64,000 nt of DNA from Nanobdellota archaeon (GTDB taxonomy: Archaea > Nanobdellota > Nanobdellia > Woesearchaeales > JAHIVG01), in assembly GCA_018816705.1 (NCBI GenBank), contig JAHIVG010000079.1:8064-72063 (forward strand), given 5' to 3'. The translations under genes and the position numbers were made by a program. Numbering within the stretch: position 1 is the first letter of the stretch; every line of letters begins with the position of its first letter. This document shows, one piece after another, positions 1 to 63,977 of this stretch. Below the pieces are notes generated by a model. That model saw only the letters and a program-made list of their open reading frames with translations. It was not told the origin of the DNA and did no database searches.

Positions 1-588
1 ACCCAAAAGCTTTACCCTTCCAGGCTTGACCTCAAAGATCTCCCCATCCCTCAGCAGGGACTCCAGGATGCTGTCAGCATCAGACATGCCAGCGGCCTTC
101 ACGAGCTCCTGAGAGTCGACACCATCTCCCTTGTCCATGTCCTTGATCAGCTTAAGCAGGGTCTCAGCATTGCCGATGCCTTCCTCAGCAGCTTCCTTCT
201 TGTCCGTCTTGGTCCGGCCCTTCAGCTCCAGCCTTCTCAGCTCCACCCATTTCGTGCTGGCCAAAGGCTTCATTATCTCCGAGGCCAGGAACCGCTCGCC
301 GTTGAACTCTCTCGGGCGGCCGATCACCAACACCGGCGTGCCGACAGCCGGGATGTCCAGGCCCTTCTCGAAGAACCTGAGGGGCAACAGGCCGGTCCCG
401 TCATCAAGCGTGCAGGCGTTCTCTGCCCGGTCGACCACCATGCCGATGACGTTTATCCTCGACACCTTGGTAGCATCACCCAGCAGCAGGTAATTGGGCT
501 CCCAACCCTCTTCCTCGCGGTAGTCAGAAGATAATACGCTGCTGATGTCCAGCTTGACCGCCACGAGGCGGGACTGTGTTGTTGCCAT
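1..588 (-). CDS. OB-fold nucleic-acid-binding protein (RPA-like), partial. The C-terminus runs off the window start.
   Basis: Minus-strand ATG at 586-588; translation MATTQSRLVAVKLDISS...NYLLLGDATKVSRINVIGMVVD...DDGTGLLPLRFF... is OB-fold-like with an acidic/winged-helix-like tail. It sits directly upstream of MCM. Not in the ORF track because it is truncated by the window edge. Confidence 0.45.
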   Translation of the reverse strand, partial: MATTQSRLVAVKLDISSVLSSDYREEEGWEPNYLLLGDATKVSRINVIGMVVDRAENACTLDDGTGLLPLRFFEKGLDIPAVGTPVLVIGRPREFNGERFLASEIMKPLASTKWVELRRLELKGRTKTDKKEAAEEGIGNAETLLKLIKDMDKGDGVDSQELVKAAGMSDADSILESLLRDGEIFEVKPGRVKLLG

Positions 589-596
589 GCATTCAC

Positions 597-2627
597 CTAA
601 ATCTTTGATATGAAACCGTGCCTGGGCTCGAATATGTCGCCTGAGCGCTTGAGCTTCTCCACGGCCTCCTCGACCTTGTCATCAGAGATGCCCTTCTCTG
701 CCGCCATCCTGATCACGTCGTCGATAGGTATGGTCTTGCCGAGCTGTTCCTCCAGCTCAGAGATTATCTCCTTGATCGTCACTATCTTGCCCCGCTCGGT
801 AGCTGGGATGCCAGTGGTTATCCTATCGATGTCTATCTTGCCGGTCTCCGGGTCGATACCTATCTGGGACAGGCAGTAATGCAGCAGTTCAACGCCGCGC
901 TTGGCATCTCTCTTTGTGACTTTGCTGCTCATGCGCATCTTGGCAGCGCCTTCTGAGAGCCTGATCATGGCCTCGAGCTGCCTCGGGCTTATGGGAACTG
1001 CCCTTATCCCCCCCTCCCCAGCGCTCATGTTCCTCATCTTGAGGTAATACTCCTTGATCTCGCTCAAGGCGCCGTCTGTCAAGACAGGATGGATATTCTG
1101 CCTCGCATAAGCGATATACTTCTTTAGGAGTTTAGTGGGTATCTCAGGCTCATCCACATCAGGGTGCTGGTGGAGGTTAAGGATGTGAGAGGCCATCTTC
1201 TCATCCATCTCCACGTCAGGAAGGTCCTTCATGGGAAAGATGAGGTCGAAGCGGTTGATCAGCGTGGGCGGCAGGTCGATCTGGTTGGCGAGTATATCAT
1301 AAGGGTCGAACCTTCCAAGCTTCGGGTTTGCAGCTGCGAGTACCGTAGTCCTTGCGATGAGCGTTGCCTGGATGTTGGCCTTGCTTATGCTGACGGTCTG
1401 CTGCTCCAGGGCCTCGTGCATCGCGGCCCGGTCCTCCGTACCCATCTTGTCGAACTCATCTATGCAGCACACGCCGTTGCTGGCCAAGACCAATGCGCCG
1501 GCCTCGAGGCTCCACCCCTTGAGGAACTCATCCTTGACCACGCTGGCAGTGAGACCTGCCCCACTGACACCCTTGCCGCTAACATACCTCGACTTAGGGG
1601 CAACCAGGTTCATCCGCTTGAGCAGCTGGGACTTGCCCGCCCCAGGATCCCCCACAAGCAGGATGTGCATATCACCCCTGGTTATCATGCCGTCTGCCCG
1701 CACCTTATGCACACCCCCGACGAGCTGGAGAAGCAGGGCCTCCTTGATCTTGCTGAAACCATAGATTGATGGAGCAACGGAATTCACAAGGCGCTGTACA
1801 CACTTCGGGTCTGAAGCTATCTCCTTTATCTGCGCCTCTTCCTCAGATGAGATCTCGATGTTATAGTAGTCCTCTGCAGCGGTCTCAACACAGTTGGCGT
1901 CTATCAACAGATCGAACCGGGTGGACTTGGTACCCCTATGAGAGATTATCGGTACTTCCTTGACCTGACCGGTCAGTATTATCTTGGTGCCCGGGTTGGT
2001 CTTCTTCTCTGACAGCGGCGAGACCAGGTCATTCTTCAAGAAGACATTCATCCTCTTCGGCTGCTCCCCGCCCTCGAGGTCTTCGGGAGCCTCCTCAATG
2101 ACCAATCCCTGAGCATCGACCAGTTCTTTGGAGAGGAGCTTGAACTTGCCCTTCCTGCCGCAGCTGCACCTCGTCGGCTCCTTCCATGATGAGTCGACCT
2201 GTATGATCGGGATGACGTTGCCGCAGCTAGGGCACTCGAACCTGGCATTGGTAACTTGCGGCCTCACCTCGCTCTTCTGCCGGACAACACCCTCAACCGA
2301 AAGGAGCTTATTGATATGGCTGCTCCGGATATTCCTGATGAGGATGGAAGAGGACTGAGGAAGGTTCCTGAACCTGACATGAAAACGTTTTAAGTCAGCA
2401 GGGAGGTCGAACTGCAGCACGGCGAGCTCTGCCGCCTTGAAGGCCTCTTCAGGCTGCTCAAGCAGCTCCTCAGCCAGTCCAGGGTCGAACCTGGACAGTT
2501 CGGAGAAGTCCACCACCAGAAACTTATCCCCCTTCCTCACCTGTTCAAGGAGCTTGGTCTGGTAATAGTTCTCCATGAATTCCTTGAATTTTCCTATCTG
2601 CTCGGTAGCGTCCATCCAGCCCACCAT
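597..2627 (-). CDS. mcm: Minichromosome maintenance helicase MCM
   Basis: 676 aa with a C4 zinc finger (CPSCG...CSCG), Walker A GDPGAGKSQLL, Walker B CIDEFDKM, an arginine finger (SRFDLIF) and a C-terminal winged helix. Confidence 0.95.
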   Translation of the reverse strand: MVGWMDATEQIGKFKEFMENYYQTKLLEQVRKGDKFLVVDFSELSRFDPGLAEELLEQPEEAFKAAELAVLQFDLPADLKRFHVRFRNLPQSSSILIRNIRSSHINKLLSVEGVVRQKSEVRPQVTNARFECPSCGNVIPIIQVDSSWKEPTRCSCGRKGKFKLLSKELVDAQGLVIEEAPEDLEGGEQPKRMNVFLKNDLVSPLSEKKTNPGTKIILTGQVKEVPIISHRGTKSTRFDLLIDANCVETAAEDYYNIEISSEEEAQIKEIASDPKCVQRLVNSVAPSIYGFSKIKEALLLQLVGGVHKVRADGMITRGDMHILLVGDPGAGKSQLLKRMNLVAPKSRYVSGKGVSGAGLTASVVKDEFLKGWSLEAGALVLASNGVCCIDEFDKMGTEDRAAMHEALEQQTVSISKANIQATLIARTTVLAAANPKLGRFDPYDILANQIDLPPTLINRFDLIFPMKDLPDVEMDEKMASHILNLHQHPDVDEPEIPTKLLKKYIAYARQNIHPVLTDGALSEIKEYYLKMRNMSAGEGGIRAVPISPRQLEAMIRLSEGAAKMRMSSKVTKRDAKRGVELLHYCLSQIGIDPETGKIDIDRITTGIPATERGKIVTIKEIISELEEQLGKTIPIDDVIRMAAEKGISDDKVEEAVEKLKRSGDIFEPRHGFISKI

Positions 2628-19003: not shown

Positions 19004-19093
19004 GAATTACCACTGAATAGGGGTATTTAAAGCTTTCGGTATGATTGGCTCTGTCCTGAGTGTCAATTTGCCTTCCTCGCTTGCAGGCAGATT

Positions 19094-19179
19094 CTCTTTT
19101 CCCGCCCTGCCACGCAAAGTGAGCAAAGCTCACTTGCGCCCAAGACTCCGTCTTTGGGGGGCGAGGCGGGAAAAGAGAG
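19094..19179. repeat. Hairpin repeat element, family X, copy A
   Basis: The outer stem ctcttttcccgcc / ggcgggaaaagag encloses the inner hairpin aAGTGAGC-aaa-GCTCACTt, followed by conserved caagactccgtctt. It is closely similar to 56804-56890. Confidence 0.6.
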
Positions 19180-19253
19180 CAAGCAACATTCAGCGCGACC
19201 GAGTCGCCAGACTTAGGACAGAGCCGGTTGTATATATAAACGCTTATCTGCCG

Positions 19254-19373
19254 GCCGCGTAGAAATCCTGGTTCTTTTTGATCCTCGCGAAAGTCAACAT
19301 GGTCACGCTCATATAAAAATCAGTCGCGTAACCGGATCAAAAAGAATCTCATTCTATCGGATTTCTACGCGGC
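19254..19373. repeat. Inverted-repeat element, family Y, copy A
   Basis: A perfect 15-bp terminal inverted repeat GCCGCGTAGAAATCC / GGATTTCTACGCGGC. An inner inverted repeat TGGTTCTTTTTGATCC / GGATCAAAAAGAA. A related copy lies at 47966-48096. Confidence 0.6.
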
Positions 19374-20765
19374 CTATCTGCCCAGAAGGGTATCCCTCTT
19401 CTGATAGCAGGCATCGACGAAGGATGCTAGCTTGGGCATCATCTGCGGCTCGGGAGCGTCTGAGAATGCCAGGTCAACATACGGCAGTATCTTGTCAGCA
19501 GCTGAGCCAGCCCTCTCGCGTGCGTTCCTAATCAATGCTTGAGATACAGACGTGGCAACAGTCTCATGCATGCACTGCCAGGGCCCGACATGGCATATGC
19601 CGCTGATTGCGGCATCGCCCACAGGCCGGAAATGGCCCTCGATGAAGAGGTAAGTCGTGCCGACAGTGATCGGAGACTCACCCTCAATGGCGGTGTGGAA
19701 TATGCCTCGGTCCTCGGCTTTCTTCGAATAGTCGTAAGCGTCATGTATCTCCCTGCCCCTGAGAAGATCCTCGAAAGGCATCCAGAGAATGTCCTTCTGC
19801 TTGTTCATGTACCATCTATTGATACCCTTCTTGAAAACATCAATCAGCGAGGACGGATGCCTAAGGCTCATGGCCTGCTTCGCATCCTGGTAGTTCCAGC
19901 TGTTGACATAAAGGAACCATTCGGCTGTGGATGCGACAAGTGTCTCCAAAGGCCTGCTGAAAGAGCCCTCCAACAGCTTAGAGATATAGTGGTTGGCTCC
20001 CGGATGGAGCCTCATGAAGAATTCGCCGTTCACAAGAGCTATCGGGAACCGTCGGGAGCGGTCAAAGTCCACCTTTGACATCTCGGCAGCAGCAGTGTAC
20101 ATCGCGTCCTCAAGGCCGTGGCCGCCAGACCTGATCTCATCGCACAGATGACCGAGAAGCTCCTTGTACTTGAGCTCTCCGGCCGTGTTCCCGACTTCAG
20201 GCTTTTTCTCGTAAGGCCTGATCCTCAGCAGGGCATTATATAATATGTCCAGGGCGAAGATGCTCTTGAAAGCCAGCTTGACAAGATCGTCTCTCTGATC
20301 AGGAGGCAGGTCCAACTCAGAATAGTTGGTCTTGCCAGAAGGGCTGACAATAGGCACCCCCTCATACCCGTTGCTGTCGAGGATGAGCCTCATAACCTGT
20401 GTGTACTGCCCCTGCCTGCACGGACCCTCGGCAGTGGGCTGGAACAAGGCAAGCTCGTCCTGGCCATGCTTCTCTGATTTCTTCTCCAGCCAGGCCAGGG
20501 CATCACCTATCAGGATGCGGAAGGGCTCGCAGGTCTGGGTTATGACATTCTTCTCCGCAAGCCCGTAAGTGTGCTCGGTGCAGGTCTCTTCCATGACCTC
20601 AGCAGGGATGCCGACACCTTGCAAAGCGGCTGCAAGGCCGTAAGAGCTGTCACCTGAGTAAGGTATGCCCCACGTGCGCTCGTTGAGGTTGTCAGGCATA
20701 GGCCTTGAAGTGTCATACTTCTTATCGAGCCGCGCCTGCAAGCCGGATGAGTCTTCGGGTTTCAT
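19374..20765 (-). CDS. 2-hydroxyacyl-CoA dehydratase-like (HgdB/DUF2229-type) protein, partner of the upstream ATPase fusion
   Basis: 463 aa. It overlaps the upstream gene by 4 nt. In clostridial 'CoA-substrate-specific enzyme activase' proteins this domain is fused to the ATPase modules. Confidence 0.65.
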   Translation of the reverse strand: MKPEDSSGLQARLDKKYDTSRPMPDNLNERTWGIPYSGDSSYGLAAALQGVGIPAEVMEETCTEHTYGLAEKNVITQTCEPFRILIGDALAWLEKKSEKHGQDELALFQPTAEGPCRQGQYTQVMRLILDSNGYEGVPIVSPSGKTNYSELDLPPDQRDDLVKLAFKSIFALDILYNALLRIRPYEKKPEVGNTAGELKYKELLGHLCDEIRSGGHGLEDAMYTAAAEMSKVDFDRSRRFPIALVNGEFFMRLHPGANHYISKLLEGSFSRPLETLVASTAEWFLYVNSWNYQDAKQAMSLRHPSSLIDVFKKGINRWYMNKQKDILWMPFEDLLRGREIHDAYDYSKKAEDRGIFHTAIEGESPITVGTTYLFIEGHFRPVGDAAISGICHVGPWQCMHETVATSVSQALIRNARERAGSAADKILPYVDLAFSDAPEPQMMPKLASFVDACYQKRDTLLGR

Positions 20766-23700
20766 GCCAGTCCCAACCTCTCCTTGACGACCTCGTTGTT
20801 AGCCAGGATCCTGGTGCCGTACTGTGCGTTAGAGCTGTGGCCGTCTGTCTGCAGCTCAAAGAAGGGTTTGTCCGCAGTATCGAATATCCTAGCAAGATGG
20901 TAAAAGAGGAACGAGTCAGGACCGCAGGCATAGTTGGTCATCAAGACCGGGAACAGCCTCGGGTGCTCTGCGACAAACAAGGCGTCCTGGATTATCCGCC
21001 TGCCCTGCTGCCAAAACATATTCTGGACAATGTCAGTGATGTCTATCTCTCCCGTGTCAAAAAAATAAGCAGGCATGAACTCCAGGCCACGCTGGGAGAA
21101 CAAGGAGCCTGTCTCAGCAGATGCCTTGGGGTCGAAGATAGTGTAGCCGCGGCCGATGCCAACGAAAGCATAAGTGTCCTTGTTCTCAATATCCTCGAGG
21201 AACGATTCACCTATCCAGTGCGTCCTGCGGTTGAAGCCCTCCTGCGCGACCTCTGCCAGGCCTAACGCGTCCTTTACCTGCCGTTTGGAGAAACGCCTGC
21301 CATACACCCTCCTGAGGTCAGCGTAGAACCGATCAACGAGAGTGTTGTTGGGATCGTCGAAGCGGATTATGGGCATGAGACTGTCGTTCTCCAAGGAAAG
21401 GTTGGCAGAGATGTTGTAATTGATAGATGCTGAGTATGGGCAGCTCTTCAAGCGCTCTGGGGAAGAGCCGTTCTCGAGCTGGGTGCCGATGAAGCTGGGA
21501 AGAAGCAACTTGAAATCCTCTCCCTCCAATGCCTCTTTGAGGTATGCAGCATGGCCATGCGCCAGCTTTGCAGGAAAACAGTTCTCGGAGTGGGAGTGCT
21601 TGAAGCCCAACTTGACGATATCATCCATGCTCTCAGGCGAGACCTTAACATCGAAGCCGAGATGATTATAGAAAGCAGCGAAGAAGACTGCCTGCTCGTT
21701 GAAGAAGAACATCGACCTAGGTATGGCCACCACGCCGTTCGAGGATGGCTGGTCGAGCGGGATAGAAAGTGCAGATACGCTGCCCTCCAGCTGCTCAAGA
21801 TAGACCTTTGTGTAATCCTTTGTCTGCCCCCTTGCAGTGAAATCAGTCGCTCCCTTAGGGCATAAGCCGCCGGCATAGACCCGGTCATCACCTATCTTAT
21901 ACTCATCGAGGTAGCAATCCCTCTTGCCGCAGGTATCCTCTCCCAAGAGTGAGCTGCAGTTGCCGCTGCTCCTGTTGAAATCCATATCGATCAGGCCGAA
22001 GCCGCGGAAGGCGCTCTCCAAGGTCTTTCCTTCTTCCTCAGCCTTATCAAGCCTCTGCTTAACTGCGACAGCAGAACCTATGGCCCCCATGACCTCGCGG
22101 TGAGGCAATGCGTGGATACTCTTGCCTGTGAGCTGTGCCAGCATGGCCAGAGCTGCCTTGCCGAGGAAGGGTCCTCCCTGGGCAGAGCAGTACTCTCCGA
22201 GGTTCTCGTTGCCGACAAACTTTGTCACGTATCCACCGATAGCAGCGTAAATCATCCCAGCAGCGAGCTCCTGCTTGGTGAGGCCCATAGAAGCGAGGTC
22301 AGCAATGCCGGCCTCGCTGAAGACAGCGCAGGTGCTGTCGACATAAGGCACTCTTCCTGCTTTTAAGGCCTCATCCTGAAGGGAACCCTTCACATCCAGG
22401 CCATAACTCATTGCAAGATTCTCCAGGGTCTGGCCCGTGCCCGCAAAGCAGGCGAGGTTCATCTTGGCAGACCTCACCAGCCCGTCCTTGTCAAGGCGTG
22501 TGAACTTGGCATCCTGCCCTCCGAGCTCGAAGATTGTGTCAACCGGAACACCAGTCTCATACTGGAACAGGCGGCACCCGTTCTTGTGGCATGTTATCTC
22601 ATCCTTAAGCACATCGCTCCTGTCCCTCTTTGAGACATCTGTAAATAGGATTTCGTAGAGCCCGGCGCTCGAGCCGGTGAAGCCGGTACCTCTCACTGAA
22701 CCGATAAGGTTGCCCATGGCATCCACTATGCCCTGCAGGAGCTCTTTGCCCGCCTTCTCAGGATCGCCTTCGGTATGGATGTACTTCTTGTAATACATCG
22801 TCTGCACATTATCAGCGTCAACGACAACCACTTTGGAAGTGGTGGAGCCGCCGTCAAAGCCCAGGATGACATCAACCTTGTGGTCAGGCAGCACAAGCGG
22901 CTTCTCTTCGTAGAGGACGACGTTGTCAAGAGAAAGCGGCGGGCCGTAGGCAATCTTCTCTCTTTGTTTCTCAGCCAAAGAGTAAATCCTCTTGGAATCA
23001 AGATGTCTAAGCCTATCCGCATGCTCGAGGCCGAGCAAGGCTGCACCGATCGCACCCACCCCGATGGAGTTCTCTTCCCAATAGATGTTTTCGGAAGGCA
23101 TTCCAATAATCTTTCCGATCTCAGAGATGATATGTGCATTGGCAGCCACCCCTCCGGTCCCCATTGCCTTTGCATCAGGATTGAGCGTCCTGGCCCGGAT
23201 GACATCACCGACATAGTTCATGGCGATGCGTCCTTCCATGGCGCTGAGGATGTCGGGTATCCTGTAGCCGGCGTTCTGCTTGTGGATCATGTCAGAAGTA
23301 ATAATCACGCCGCAGCGGCCGCCTATCTCGAGGTCCTGAGTCGAGGAACCGACGACCTGGGCAGCGTGGCCAATCACGAGACGCATCTGCTCCTCCAACT
23401 GCTCCCTGTCAGTGCCTTCAACTGGGAACAGGTGGCTGAAGTACCTCTTGTACTGCTTGGCCAGAAGGATGCCTGAGCCCCCGCCGCACTTGGTGCCGGT
23501 CTCATAGACCACGACACCGATGTCAGGGTCGACCTCAAAGAAGTAAGGGTCGCGCGCGCCGATGTGGAATATATACTTGATATCAGGTGCGAGATGCTGA
23601 GCCCCCCGGGGAATGGTCTGCGTGTCATAGGCGAAAAATGTGTCGTTGGCCTCAGCAGCCAGCCTGCCGCCGATGCCTGTGAATGAGACCCCCTCGAGGC

Positions 23701-23940
23701 CGTAGGACATCTTGACCCTGTCGTGGATATCCATTGTAAGGCTGTGCGGTGAGCCGAAATGCGAGAATGAAGATGATTCGACGATGCTGCCTGAAAGGTC
23801 CAAGACAGCAGCGTGCACACTAGCAGAGCCGATGTCTAACCCTAGCACGACTTCGTCTATCGACAAATGACAACACTCCCGATAAAGCGCAATGACGGCC
23901 TTCTTTAAAAGTTTTCCCTTAAGAATGATGAACAAACACA
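20762..23940 (-). CDS. Fusion of two BadF/BadG/BcrA/BcrD-type (HgdC-like) ATPase modules with a dehydratase-like C-terminal domain
   Basis: Two ASKHA-fold segments (LGLDIGSASVHAAV... and ILGFDGGSTTSKVVV...) are followed by a ~400 aa C-terminal domain. The ORF track starts at 24034. A start at 23940 (MCLFIIL) is preferred, with GAGGT 4 nt upstream. Confidence 0.7.
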
Positions 23941-24118
23941 TAACCTCTGTTGAAAATGACCTGGCCCGGATCGCGCCAGGCCCACCAATAATTGAAACCC
24001 CCATTTCACTGTCCCACCAAATGCACCCACCCACCCTGCATGACGTTGTGCTTGTCGAGACATTTCAAGAGCACGAGAGCTGAAAGCCCCTATGCCATAA
24101 TCGCAGAGAGAAATAATT

Positions 24119-47764: not shown

Positions 47765-47965
47765 ATCAACCAGGGGAGGTGAAGGGTTTATATATTTTTC
47801 TTCGGTAGTCTAGGTTCAAGAGCCTCGGCCCGCACAATACTCTTCAAGTGTATATGGCCCCTTTTACTGTCCTCCCGAGCCCCCACCCCCATACAGTCCG
47901 CCTCTGAGGCCGACAAGTTGAGGCAGTCGTGTCGAGCCTTCATCACTTGGCCGGCAAGAAAAACC

Positions 47966-48096
47966 GGCTTAGTAGAAAGTCTGGTTCTTTTTGATCCTTT
48001 ACCATAAGAACAGATAGTTATCTGTCTAATCTAACATAGACCTTAGTAATGGAAAGGATCAAAAAGAAATTTCCATTATCGACTTTTTACTAAGCC
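47966..48096. repeat. Inverted-repeat element, family Y, copy B
   Basis: ggcttagtagaaagtc-tggttctttttgatcc ... ggatcaaaaagaa-atttccattatc-gactttttactaagcc. The ~58-nt spacer contains the palindrome CAGATAgtTATCTG. Confidence 0.55.
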
Positions 48097-48121
48097 TGAA
48101 AAACCGAAACATACTCATTTC

Positions 48122-48227
48122 ATCCGTAGCTTCGATTTCTTGAAGAAATCGAAACATTTAAACAGCGAAAACCTGCGGTTTTTGGGTTTAAATGTCCCGA
48201 AAATGGAACATTTTCGAAACATTTAAA
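48122..48227. promoter_or_regulatory. Operator-like palindromes and direct repeats upstream of the wHTH regulator/ABC operon
   Basis: A perfect 21-bp palindrome TCGATTTCTTGAAGAAATCGA (48122-48142). The palindrome CGAAAATGgaaCATTTTCG (48198-48216). The direct repeat TCGAAACATTTAAA, twice. Confidence 0.45.
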
Positions 48228-48266
48228 TACTTCAAAATTCACTAAATTTATAAAATTGTAAAAATT

Positions 48267-56803: not shown

Positions 56804-56890
56804 TCTTTTTTCCCCGCCTCGGCACACAGAGTGAGCGAAGCTCACTTGTGCGCAAGACTCCGTCTTAGCGCGCGGGGCGGAGGAAAAAAG
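56804..56890. repeat. Hairpin repeat element, family X, copy B
   Basis: ctcttttttccccgcc...AGTGAGC-gaa-GCTCACTtgtgcgcaagactccgtctt...ggcggaggaaaaaag. It shows compensatory differences from copy A. Confidence 0.6.
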
Positions 56891-60345: not shown

Positions 60346-60436
60346 GGCAGCAACCGAGAATTGAACTCGGTCCTGGAGCTCACTGCAGCAACATGCCGCC
60401 ACAGGCTCCCATGCTAACCATTACACCATTGCCGCC
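60346..60436 (-). tRNA. tRNA-His(GTG) with an anticodon-loop intron and an encoded G-1
   Basis: Minus-strand fold:
- G-1, then acceptor GCGGCAA / TTGCTGC with one G-U pair.
- Anticodon stem GGAGC/GCTCC around loop CTGTGG|A (anticodon GTG), with an ~18-nt insert.
- T arm CCGAG-TTCAATT-CTCGG, and discriminator C.
- A TATA-like ctttataag lies ~30 nt upstream. Confidence 0.6.
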
Positions 60437-60612
60437 ACAAGGGAAAGTATTGGCTTTCTGCTTATAAAGGTTACCAAAACAGAAGTAAGAAAATTGTTAT
60501 AATACTGAAAATCCAGCCACCCATGGCACGGACGGCCTCTTCCTGCGGAAGAGTCCTATTCGGCTTCGGCTACGCCTTGCCTCATCCGGCCTTGGCTGGA
60601 TTTTCGGAACTC

Positions 60613-60716
60613 GGTAACAACATTGGCGCGCGGCGAGGCGGGGGATGCCCATCCGGGGTGCCGAGTAGGACAAATTGGTACAATTTGGCCGTCGCGCTGC
60701 CAGTAATGTTGTTACC
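60613..60716. ncRNA. Candidate structured RNA / conserved hairpin element, family Z, copy 2 (opposite orientation)
   Basis: Closing stem ggtaacaacatt / aatgttgttacc. Inner hairpin caaattg-ta-caatttg. The conserved cctcgccgcgcgcc block is present. Confidence 0.4.
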
Positions 60717-60735
60717 TAACTAAGAAATTATTTAA

Positions 60736-63695: not shown

Positions 63696-63977
63696 TGTGG
63701 GGAGTGCATAAGCCATCTTCTGTATTCTGCAACATTCGACTAAGCGCTTAAAGCTTGCACCGGCCAGGGCTCGCCGTTTCACCGCCATCTGGGGAACGTC
63801 TGCTGCGCAGCCCAGTCGCCTAGGTGTGCTGGAGCGTCATCCTTGGCCCAGAAGCGTTCGTTTCTGTGCGGTTGCCTCCCCTTTCGAGGACCCGTAGGGT
63901 GGCCTTTCGCGGTGGATGGACTTTCCTCAGCTACCAGGCTTCTCAGCCCGGTTACCGGCAGTTGCATGCACCCCCAC
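63696..63977 (-). ncRNA. rnpB: RNase P RNA
   Basis: The minus strand carries: P1 GTGGGGGTGC...GCACtCCCCAC; P4 5' strand GAGGAAAGTCC; ACAGAAA; GGCGGTGAAACGGCG (the CR-IV-like GGTGAAA); and ACAGAAGATGGCTTAT (the CR-V-like ...GGCUUA). A TATA TTTAAATA lies ~25 nt upstream. Confidence 0.75.

What the first reader, a model, noticed from the sequence alone, without database searches (positions are those of the whole stretch)
19094..19179. Family X hairpin element, two to three copies with compensatory base changes
Copies at 19094-19179 and 56804-56890 share this architecture: an outer ~13-bp stem (CTCTTTTCCCGCC / GGCGGGAAAAGAG), an inner hairpin AGTGAGC-(a/g)aa-GCTCACT, and a conserved single-stranded caagactccgtctt.

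Between copies, the outer stem changes its T-run length from 4 to 6 with a matching A-run change. The inner-stem extension changes cgc/gcg to cac/gtg. Pairing is maintained in both cases.

A degenerate third copy (47821-47965, CAAGTG...CACTTG) has a large insert. Structure-preserving variation argues for a functional RNA, or a cruciform, rather than neutral repeat decay.
Basis: seen in the sequence. Interest (0 to 1): 0.65.

Follow-up and report, generated by a model that had tools for sequence, protein, structure and literature searches.

The report
Foldback cassette of an archaeal MITE
The flagged hairpin is the folded centre of a small mobile DNA repeat (a MITE-type element) that has spread within one Woesearchaeota genome; its base-pair-preserving changes are real, but it is a lineage-specific repeat, not a conserved RNA gene.

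Summary
Two of the three claimed copies are real: 19094-19179 and 56804-56890. Both fold as a three-way junction: a long outer stem plus two small bulged hairpins. The "single-stranded" caagactccgtctt is itself the second hairpin. The third copy (47821-47965) is not a copy.

The host is a Woesearchaeota/Nanoarchaeota MAG. Five more copies lie on three other contigs from the same samples. None was found in about 0.7 Mb from roughly 45 other Woesearchaeota loci, in 185,579 species genomes, or in Rfam.

Copy 1 is the core of a 179-bp element (19047-19225) with 15-bp terminal inverted repeats (GGCTCTGTCCTGAGT) and a decayed 9-bp target-site duplication. A sister copy has a perfect 9/9 duplication, and a related species has the unoccupied site.

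The cassette also occurs alone (copy 2), in both orientations inside the shell, and as a 45-nt module inside longer hairpin arrays.

Pairing is strictly kept (126 of 126 cells; 5 pairs changed on both sides). However, a second MITE family in the window shows the same compensatory pattern in its terminal repeats, so this does not prove an RNA.

Verdict: a new member of a known kind (MITE/foldback repeat); an RNA or terminator role is possible but unshown.

The parts
19038..19046 (.). Left 9-bp flank GGTATGATT: decayed target-site duplication of the copy-1 element.
   Evidence: It matches the right flank at 5 of 9 positions. Across the four TIR-bounded copies the flanks match at 27 of 36 positions, against a null mean of 8.7 and a maximum of 20 in 200,000 trials.
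19047..19061 (.). Left terminal inverted repeat GGCTCTGTCCTGAGT.
   Evidence: Inverted repeat I12, 15 nt and 93% complementary. The same termini bound three further copies on L002 and L003.
19062..19093 (.). Arm A: the spacer between the terminal repeat and the cassette.
   Evidence: 81-85% identical to arm A of L002 and L003a. In L002 it lies on the other side of the cassette.
19094..19179 (+). Cassette copy 1 (the finding). Outer stem 19094-19106 / 19165-19177; hairpin H1 19113-19138; hairpin H2 19140-19157. The three helices form a three-way junction.
   Evidence: MFE -56 kcal/mol, z = -7.7. Covariance model score 105.9 bits. Segment boundaries.
19180..19210 (.). Arm B.
   Evidence: 73-81% identical to arm B of the other TIR-bounded copies.
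19211..19225 (.). Right terminal inverted repeat ACTTAGGACAGAGCC.
19226..19234 (.). Right 9-bp flank GGTTGTATA: decayed target-site duplication.
56804..56890 (+). Cassette copy 2, a solo copy. Outer stem 56804-56818 / 56876-56890 (T6/A6 with one extra A); H1 56825-56850; H2 56852-56869. It has no TIR arms and no recognisable duplication.
   Evidence: Covariance model score 90.6 bits. Its flanks are no more similar to arms A or B than shuffles are. Fold z = -6.8. No model match in the 21-kb locus of the closest relative, whose syntenic intergenic region is 160 bp shorter.

Best explanation
The flagged 86-nt hairpin is the central foldback cassette of a lineage-specific family of small non-coding mobile repeats in a Woesearchaeota (DPANN) genome.

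In its full form the element is a MITE:
- 15-bp terminal inverted repeats (GGCTCTGTCCTGAGT);
- two arms of about 32 nt;
- a cassette closed by a 13-16-bp T-run/A-run stem that encloses small bulged hairpins.

Shown here: it inserts into intergenic DNA with a 9-bp target-site duplication.

Inferred: a DDE transposase supplied in trans moves it. The 9-bp duplication and the GGCTnTGT termini resemble the IS903 group of the IS5 family.

The cassette is a modular passenger:
- it occurs in either orientation inside the shell;
- it occurs alone, as in copy 2;
- its 45-nt two-hairpin module also occurs inside longer arrays of similar hairpins.

Pairing is strictly maintained. Either a folded single strand is needed for the cassette's propagation or stability, or palindromes are repaired arm against arm (template-switch correction of quasi-palindromes, known from bacteria). 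Which of these applies is not shown.

The copies may secondarily act on neighbouring genes. The T-run is met first from either direction, and oligo-T is an archaeal termination signal. That role is an idea only.
For: Family and range:
- Seven cassette copies: window copies 1 and 2, L002, three on L003, and L004. L002 comes from the same three samples as the window; L003 and L004 come from the same JGI metagenome as L002.
- No copy in 658 kb covering 41 other Woesearchaeota RtcB loci, in the rest of the contig, or in L053-L060.
- No copy in 185,579 species genomes or in IMG/VR, searched by exact inner pattern.
- No match to phage or plasmid records.

MITE anatomy:
- The same terminal repeats bound four copies of 178-361 bp.
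- The 9-bp flanks match at 9/9, 7/9, 6/9 and 5/9 positions. That is 27 of 36, and 0 of 200,000 random placements reach it.

Unoccupied site:
- In the related species GCA_043812875.1 the same gene pair (sigma70_r4-like gene, RDD gene) is conserved. Its single 'ATGACCacaacTTATAAAAA' aligns by eye with the 'TAATGGACCgcaacATATATAAA' that follows the L002 insertion. There is no element.
- For copy 2, the closest relative (RtcB 76% identical) keeps the gene order, has an intergenic region 160 bp shorter, and gives no model match.

Modularity:
- The arms are swapped relative to the cassette in L002 compared with w1 and L003a.
- Solo copies lack the arms.
- Module identity cuts across contexts: w1 and L004 share 44/45 positions, L002 and L003b share 44/45.
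- In L003x the apex of H1 is replaced, GTGAGC/GCTCAC becoming GAAATC/GATTTC, inside otherwise identical flanks.

Other support:
- IS903B read on plasmid Rts1: 18-bp terminal repeat GGCTTTGTTGAATAAATC and a 9-bp duplication.
- A second MITE family sits in the same window, and a short-read contig breaks inside it.
- A published census reports a Woesearchaea genome among the MITE-densest archaea (PMC11602168).
Against: - No transposase with matching ends was found. None is among the Pfam hits of the window genes or in the gene lists of the loci. Only about 140 kb of this genome could be read.
- The IS903 resemblance is weak: 7 of the first 9 bases, and 9 of 18 overall.
- The solo cassettes have neither terminal-repeat arms nor a duplication. 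Classical DDE transposition therefore does not explain them.
- Internal sequence is not needed by DDE transposases. The strict conservation of internal hairpins and of their extrahelical bases in all seven copies therefore points to some extra constraint, which could be an RNA function.
- The two one-sided changes in the module both give G.U on the same strand. That is what a transcribed or folded strand would predict.
Confidence: 0.75

Rival explanations
1. The cassette is a structured non-coding RNA, either an sRNA or a cis-acting element. It would be read from the strand CRCAAAGTGAGC... and would have been spread by, or captured into, the MITE shell. The hairpins and their bulged bases would be protein- or RNA-recognition features.
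For: - 100% pairing with 5 pairs changed on both sides, and variable loops (AAA, GAA, GTA, ATA) over invariant stems.
- Both one-sided changes are G.U on the same strand.
- Extrahelical A and T are kept in every copy.
- The two solo copies lie in the sense orientation between co-directional genes, with TATA-like motifs about 45-55 nt upstream (read by eye).
Against: - No Rfam family matches, even at E up to 10.
- No model match at the syntenic locus in the closest relative or in any other Woesearchaeota locus.
- Orientation relative to neighbouring genes and to the shell is mixed.
- Copy 1 is antisense to both of its neighbours.
- The same compensatory pattern occurs in MITE terminal repeats, which need no RNA.
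- The covariation represents few independent events: three haplotypes plus one apex swap.
Confidence: 0.12
2. The cassette, or its 45-nt module, moves as a folded single DNA strand. This would be like bacterial REP/REPIN elements or IS200/IS605 ends, recognised by an HUH (Y1) transposase, with the TIR-bounded MITE only one of its landing places.
For: - Solo copies lack both terminal-repeat arms and a duplication.
- The module is found in unrelated contexts at 44/45 identity.
- Hairpins nest inside hairpins in L003x and L004.
- Extrahelical bases are conserved, as in hairpins recognised as single-stranded DNA.
Against: - No HUH or RAYT gene was seen in any sequence held.
- The many distinct hairpin sequences argue against a single recognition site.
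- This mechanism is not documented for archaeal repeats of this type, as far as I know.
Confidence: 0.1
3. The copies are kept because they serve the host as bidirectional transcription stops or insulators. On either strand the cassette begins with CTCTTTT(TT)CC, so RNA polymerase meets an oligo-T run first from both sides.
For: - T4 to T6 runs sit on the 5' arm of both strands.
- Solo copy L003b starts a few nt after a stop codon, and copy 2 lies 185 nt after one, both between co-directional genes.
- The second MITE family carries a T5 run and sits exactly on a stop codon.
- Oligo-T termination in archaea is established knowledge, cited here from memory.
Against: - Other copies sit in divergent promoter regions (L002, L003a), where no stop is needed.
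- T4 is short for an archaeal terminator.
- No 3'-end data are available.
Confidence: 0.1
4. Chance similarity, or a neutrally decaying duplicate.
For: None beyond the small number of copies.
Against: - The exact 14-mer and 17-mer are shared only by the two copies.
- Model scores of 90-106 bits.
- All variable stem positions remain paired.
Confidence: 0.01

Closest known systems
Prokaryotic MITEs (for example Correia elements of Neisseria and the SM MITEs of Sulfolobus; both from memory)
   Same: Short, non-coding and multi-copy. Intergenic location, terminal inverted repeats, target-site duplication, a strong foldback, and restriction to a narrow lineage.
   Different: The interior is not simply the two ends of an insertion sequence. 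It is a cassette of small bulged hairpins that is found inverted, alone, and expanded to about ten hairpins. No parent insertion sequence has been identified.
IS903 / IS5-family DDE insertion sequences
   Same: A 9-bp target-site duplication and termini beginning GGCTnTGT. IS903B was read here on plasmid Rts1.
   Different: Only 9 of 18 terminal bases agree. No transposase gene was found. IS903 is bacterial, and an archaeal relative is only presumed.
Mosaic palindromic repeats of bacteria: BIME/REP and REPIN of enterobacteria and Pseudomonas, and BOX elements of Streptococcus pneumoniae (from memory)
   Same: Modular build from short palindromic units in variable number and orientation. Strong secondary structure. 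Units are shared between different mosaics.
   Different: Those are bacterial, have no 15-bp terminal repeats with a 9-bp duplication, and (for REP) are tied to RAYT genes. Here the mosaic sits inside a MITE shell in an archaeon.

Membership tests
MITE | Short (below about 500 bp), with no coding capacity of its own | tested here: met
   The four TIR-bounded copies are 178-361 bp. Only mechanical ORFs cross them.
MITE | Terminal inverted repeats | tested here: met
   GGCTCTGTCCTGAGT / ACTTAGGACAGAGCC, 15 nt and 93% complementary in the window. The same ends occur on three more copies. Not met by solo copy 2.
MITE | Target-site duplication of fixed length | tested here: met
   9 bp, matching at 9/9, 7/9, 6/9 and 5/9 positions. 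The total of 27/36 is reached by 0 of 200,000 random placements.
MITE | Several copies per genome and presence/absence between relatives | tested here: met
   Seven cassette copies, four of them TIR-bounded. Unoccupied site in GCA_043812875.1. No model match at the syntenic site of copy 2 in GCA_043806015.1.
MITE | A parent insertion sequence with the same ends that encodes the transposase | not testable with these tools
   None in the roughly 140 kb of this genome that could be read.
IS5 family, IS903 group (as source of the transposase) | 9-bp duplication and termini starting GGC | tested here: met
   IS903B on Rts1 has the terminal repeat GGCTTTGTTGAATAAATC and the duplication CGTTGTGTC. 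The element here has GGCTCTGTCCTGAGTGTC with a 9-bp duplication. Similarity is weak, at 9/18.
IS5 family, IS903 group (as source of the transposase) | DDE transposase of the family present in the genome | not tested
   No candidate gene is available to test.
Any described RNA family (Rfam 15) | Match to a curated covariance model | tested here: not met
   Only sub-threshold microRNA-type noise at E 0.1-6. The whole-window scan found only RNase P.
Conserved ncRNA gene | Conservation at syntenic positions in related species | tested here: not met
   No model match at either syntenic locus or in 41 other Woesearchaeota loci.
REP/REPIN (RAYT-dependent) | Palindromic units associated with a RAYT (Y1 HUH) gene; no terminal repeats or duplication | tested here: inconclusive
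   The solo cassettes fit the 'no terminal repeat, no duplication' part. No RAYT-like gene was seen in the sequence held, and the genome is incomplete.
Bacterial-type intrinsic terminator | G+C-rich hairpin followed by a T-run | tested here: not met
   The T-run precedes the stem and the A-run follows it, on both strands.

The most novel reading that the evidence does not exclude
The 45-nt two-hairpin module, and the cassette built on it, is an independently propagating unit selected for its structure. It would move between genomic contexts by a hairpin-directed route that is not DDE transposition, or it would be a new structured RNA hitch-hiking on MITEs. On this reading the MITE shell is only one of its vehicles.

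That would give a REPIN-like or RNA-based repeat system in a DPANN archaeon, with conserved extrahelical bases as recognition marks.
Probability: 0.12. Interest if true: 0.6.

Novelty: new member of a known kind. Interest (0 to 1): 0.3.

Why it matters
It settles what the hairpin is: a genome-specific mobile repeat, not a missed RNA gene. Annotation pipelines and RNA-discovery screens should therefore mask it.

It also gives a worked caution. Perfect compensatory change in an inverted repeat is not evidence for RNA when the repeat is mobile. The terminal repeats of a second MITE family in the same window show exactly the same pattern.

Three smaller points of interest:
- Reduced DPANN genomes still carry active-looking MITEs, one of which sits exactly on a stop codon and regenerates it.
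- The modular, invertible hairpin cassette has no explained mode of spread.
- These repeats break short-read assemblies of such genomes.

Tried and rejected
- **Rfam.** Searched at gathering score and at E up to 10 on both copies; nothing was found.
- **ARAGORN.** No tRNA-like call.
- **Third copy (47821-47965).** Rejected.
- **Collection scans with the inner pattern.** Species genomes gave 0 hits. IMG/VR gave 0 hits.
- **Collection scans with the outer-stem and terminal-repeat patterns in IMG/VR.** One chance hit and 0 hits.
- **Phage and plasmid records.** No match.
- **Homologues of copy 1's neighbour (463 aa).** They sit on bacterial-looking contigs at 50% identity, so no syntenic comparison was possible for copy 1.
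- **Extending the contig beyond the window.** No further copies.
- **Testing whether the solo copies are decayed TIR-bounded copies.** Their flanks are no more similar to the arms than shuffles are, so this was rejected.
- **Duplications flanking the solo cassettes.** None seen by eye.
- **Transposase in the window.** None among the Pfam hits.
- **Literature on the samples (3300014656, SRR6514274).** Nothing found.
- **Strand of the fold.** Both strands fold well. Only two G.U cells favour one strand, which is not enough to decide.

Full report
**What is at the coordinates**

The two main copies are real. 19094-19179 and 56804-56890 share 84% identity over 58 nt. The 14-mer CAAGACTCCGTCTT and the 17-mer AGTGAGCRAAGCTCACT occur exactly only at these two places in the 64-kb window.

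Each copy folds, on either strand, far better than dinucleotide shuffles: z = -7.7 and -6.8 on the + strand, -6.5 and -4.6 on the - strand. The predicted structure is a three-way junction with three helices:
- an outer stem of 13-16 bp, with a T-run on the 5' arm and an A-run on the 3' arm;
- hairpin H1: CRC-AA-a-GTGAGC, a 3-nt loop, then GCTCAC-TT-GYG, with one extrahelical A;
- hairpin H2: SC-AAGAC-TCC-GTCTT-t-GS, with one extrahelical base.

The claimed third copy at 47821-47965 is not related. With the model's filters off, nothing above 2.3 bits lies inside it. It also folds like a shuffle, z = -0.37.

**Whose genome this is**

The window carries an archaeal RNase P RNA. Its RtcB is closest to Woesearchaeota/Nanoarchaeota MAGs, at 58-72% identity among species representatives. 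The exact proteins are on record as 'Nanoarchaeota archaeon', on an 81.5-kb contig.

No Rfam family matches either copy, even at E up to 10.

**More copies, all from the same place**

An exact-pattern scan for the two inner hairpins found nothing in 185,579 species genomes and nothing in IMG/VR. It found four places on three contigs of JGI metagenome 3300014656.

L002's contig comes from the same three samples as the window: SRR6514274, ERZ27247128 and 3300014656. L003 and L004 come from the same JGI metagenome. They are most likely other contigs of the same genome or population. They share only the element with the window at DNA level.

A covariance model built from five copies added a divergent copy on L003 (1494-1854, here 'L003x') and confirmed L004. 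It found nothing elsewhere:
- 658 kb searched, including 41 other Woesearchaeota RtcB loci;
- the parts of the contig outside the window;
- loci L053-L060.

Phage and plasmid collections give no match either.

**The larger unit is a MITE**

Copy 1 and three of the other copies are bounded by the same inverted termini, GGCTCTGTCCTGA... / ...TCAGGACAGAGCC. In the window these lie at 19047-19061 and 19211-19225. The units measure 179, 178, 230 and 361 bp.

The nine bases outside the termini are direct repeats:

| Copy | Left flank | Right flank | Matches |
|---|---|---|---|
| L002 | TAATGGACC | TAATGGACC | 9/9 |
| L003x | GATGTATAA | GGTGTATAT | 7/9 |
| L003a | TGCGCAACC | TGCATGACC | 6/9 |
| w1 (window) | GGTATGATT | GGTTGTATA | 5/9 |

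The total is 27 of 36. Random placements at the same spacing give a mean of 8.7 and never more than 20 in 200,000 trials.

For L002 an unoccupied site exists. In the related species GCA_043812875.1 the same gene pair is conserved (a small sigma70_r4-like gene, then an RDD gene). Its promoter-proximal sequence 'ATGACCacaacTTATAAAAA' corresponds, by eye, to 'TAATGGACCgcaacATATATAAA' after the L002 insertion. The element and one copy of the 9-mer are missing.

Terminal repeats, a fixed-length duplication, multiple copies and an unoccupied site are the defining features of a MITE.

The 9-bp duplication and the GGCTnTGT termini recall IS903. I read IS903B on plasmid Rts1 as a check. It is 1057 bp, with terminal repeat GGCTTTGTTGAATAAATC and duplication CGTTGTGTC. 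The resemblance is only 9 of 18 bases, so it is a lead and not an assignment. No transposase is present in any sequence I could read (and the gene lists).

**The cassette behaves as a module**

- *Orientation.* In w1 and L003a the order is arm A, cassette, arm B. In L002 the arms are exchanged relative to the cassette. By the module's orientation, L003x matches L002.
- *Solo copies.* Copy 2 of the window and L003b have the complete cassette, with a T6/A6 stem. Their flanks resemble arms A and B no more than shuffles do, and I see no duplication by eye.
- *Arrays.* In L004 the 45-nt H1-H2 module sits without the outer stem inside a chain of similar 7-bp, 3-nt-loop hairpins. L003x carries about ten such hairpins between the same outer stem and termini.
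- *Identity cuts across contexts.* w1 and L004 agree at 44/45 positions, and L002 and L003b at 44/45, whereas w1 and w2 agree at only 38/45.
- *Apex swap.* In L003x the apex of H1 is GAAATC/GATTTC instead of GTGAGC/GCTCAC, within otherwise identical flanks.

How the module moves between these contexts is not explained by DDE transposition. It remains open.

**Compensatory change: real, but not diagnostic**

On the seven modules all 126 pair cells are standard pairs. Five pairs changed on both sides, and 0 of 500 shuffles reach the observed pairing or covariation score. Sliding the partners destroys the signal.

Loops vary (AAA, GAA, GTA, ATA; TCC, TTC) while stems do not. The two one-sided changes both give G.U on the same strand. 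The extrahelical bases are kept in all copies.

This argues for a constraint on a folded strand. Three things limit the inference:
- The changes amount to few events: three haplotypes and one apex swap.
- Palindromes can be corrected arm against arm by template switching. This is established for quasi-palindromes in bacteria (cited from memory).
- The window holds an internal control, a second and unrelated MITE family ('Y').

Family Y has two copies:
- Y1 at 19253-19374, with perfect 16-bp termini and a perfect 8-bp duplication TATCTGCC.
- Y2 at 47966-48096, with the duplication GAAAAACC offset by 1 nt.

Between Y1 and Y2, 5 of the 16 terminal-repeat positions differ, each on both arms. Terminal repeats co-vary because both ends must fit one transposase, with no RNA involved.

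**Conservation test for copy 2**

The closest relative with RtcB (76% identity; GCA_043806015.1) keeps the gene order: 413 aa, 121 aa, intergenic region, 96 aa, archease, RtcB. Its intergenic region is 206 bp against 366 bp in the window. There is no model match in the 21 kb around it. The intergenic regions are too diverged to define an exact unoccupied site, but the cassette is not a conserved feature of this locus.

**Position relative to genes**

Copies lie in intergenic DNA of every kind:
- between co-directional genes (w1, w2, L003b);
- between convergent gene ends (L003x);
- in divergent promoter regions (L002, L003a).

Orientation relative to neighbours is mixed. TATA-like motifs next to several copies are explained by neighbouring leaderless genes and by insertion into AT-rich promoter DNA (read).

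On either strand the cassette begins with CTCTTTT(TT)CC. A polymerase coming from either side therefore meets an oligo-T run first. A terminator or insulator role is conceivable but untested.

**Verdict**

The interpretation needs changing: this is the foldback core of a lineage-specific MITE-type repeat, not a conserved RNA gene.

A published census already lists a Woesearchaea genome among the most MITE-dense archaeal genomes (PMC11602168). The kind of element is therefore known, although this family and its modular, invertible hairpin cassette do not appear to have been described.

I rate it a new member of a known kind, of modest interest. The residual open question is how the cassette itself spreads and whether its folded strand is RNA.

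Noticed in passing
window 19245-19382 and 47958-48105: A second, unrelated MITE family ('Y') with the same Y-shaped design.
- Y1 (19253-19374): perfect 16-bp termini GGCCGCGTAGAAATCC and a perfect 8-bp duplication TATCTGCC. It is inserted in the stop codon of gene 19374-20765(-). The old end GR-TAA is left at 19244-19252, and a new TAG is made from the duplication plus the first base of the element.
Source calls: 88-92, 108, 115, 120, 123.
   Followed up: yes
window 60346-60435 (-): An intron-containing tRNA gene (Rfam tRNA, 47.6 bits, with a 21-nt insert after the anticodon stem). ARAGORN missed it, and so did the whole-window Rfam scan at gathering score. It lies 1.2 kb from the archease-RtcB (tRNA ligase) pair. 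Source calls: 4, 6, 96, 97.
   Followed up: partly
window 60496-60727: Two adjacent strongly folded non-coding stretches next to the tRNA.
- 60507-60605, closed by GAAAATCCAGCCA/TGGCTGGATTTTC, z about -4.6.
- 60602-60727, closed by a 23-nt inverted repeat.
Neither matches any Rfam family. Nature unknown. Source calls: 92, 94, 96, 113.
   Followed up: partly
window 48105-48230: Further hairpins (TTCGATTTCT-tga-AGAAATCGAA and CGAAAATG-gaa-CATTTTCG) and a direct repeat TCGAAACATTTAAA occurring twice, in the same 500-bp intergenic region as Y2 (z about -5.2). The AGAAATC/GATTTCT arms resemble a hairpin module of L003x and L004. Source calls: 36, 38, 113.
   Followed up: no
L004 155-465: The hairpin array (about 186-432) lies between two copies of the last ten codons plus the stop of the VWA-domain gene 433-1404(-). 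Both 155-187(-) and 433-465(-) translate to LINTKYRTVP*. They are 27/33 identical, and every difference is synonymous or stop-to-stop. This looks like an att-type duplication of a gene end rather than a transposase-made duplication. Source calls: 32, 119, 122.
   Followed up: partly
L056 4585-4700 and L059 4030-4140: Three copies of the palindrome (A)TACTTAC-ryt-GTAAGTA(T) lie upstream of a small sigma70_r4-like gene. They are conserved in number and sequence between two species. They are probably operator sites. Source calls: 36, 67, 68.
   Followed up: no
window 19374-24034: The gene pair next to copy 1 (a 1090-aa BcrAD_BadFG + DUF2229 protein and a 463-aa protein with no Pfam domain) has its nearest homologues (about 50% identity, same gene order) on contigs carrying LpxC and FabA, which are bacterial genes. 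This is a possible transfer into the archaeon. Source calls: 25, 41, 59, 60.
   Followed up: partly
L062 (Logan SRR6514274_816949) against window 19374: A short-read contig of the same sample ends 28 nt after the stop of the 463-aa gene, which is inside MITE Y1. This is a repeat-induced assembly break. Source call: 103.
   Followed up: no
window 63700-63975 (-): Archaeal RNase P RNA, 155.9 bits. Source call: 4.
   Followed up: no
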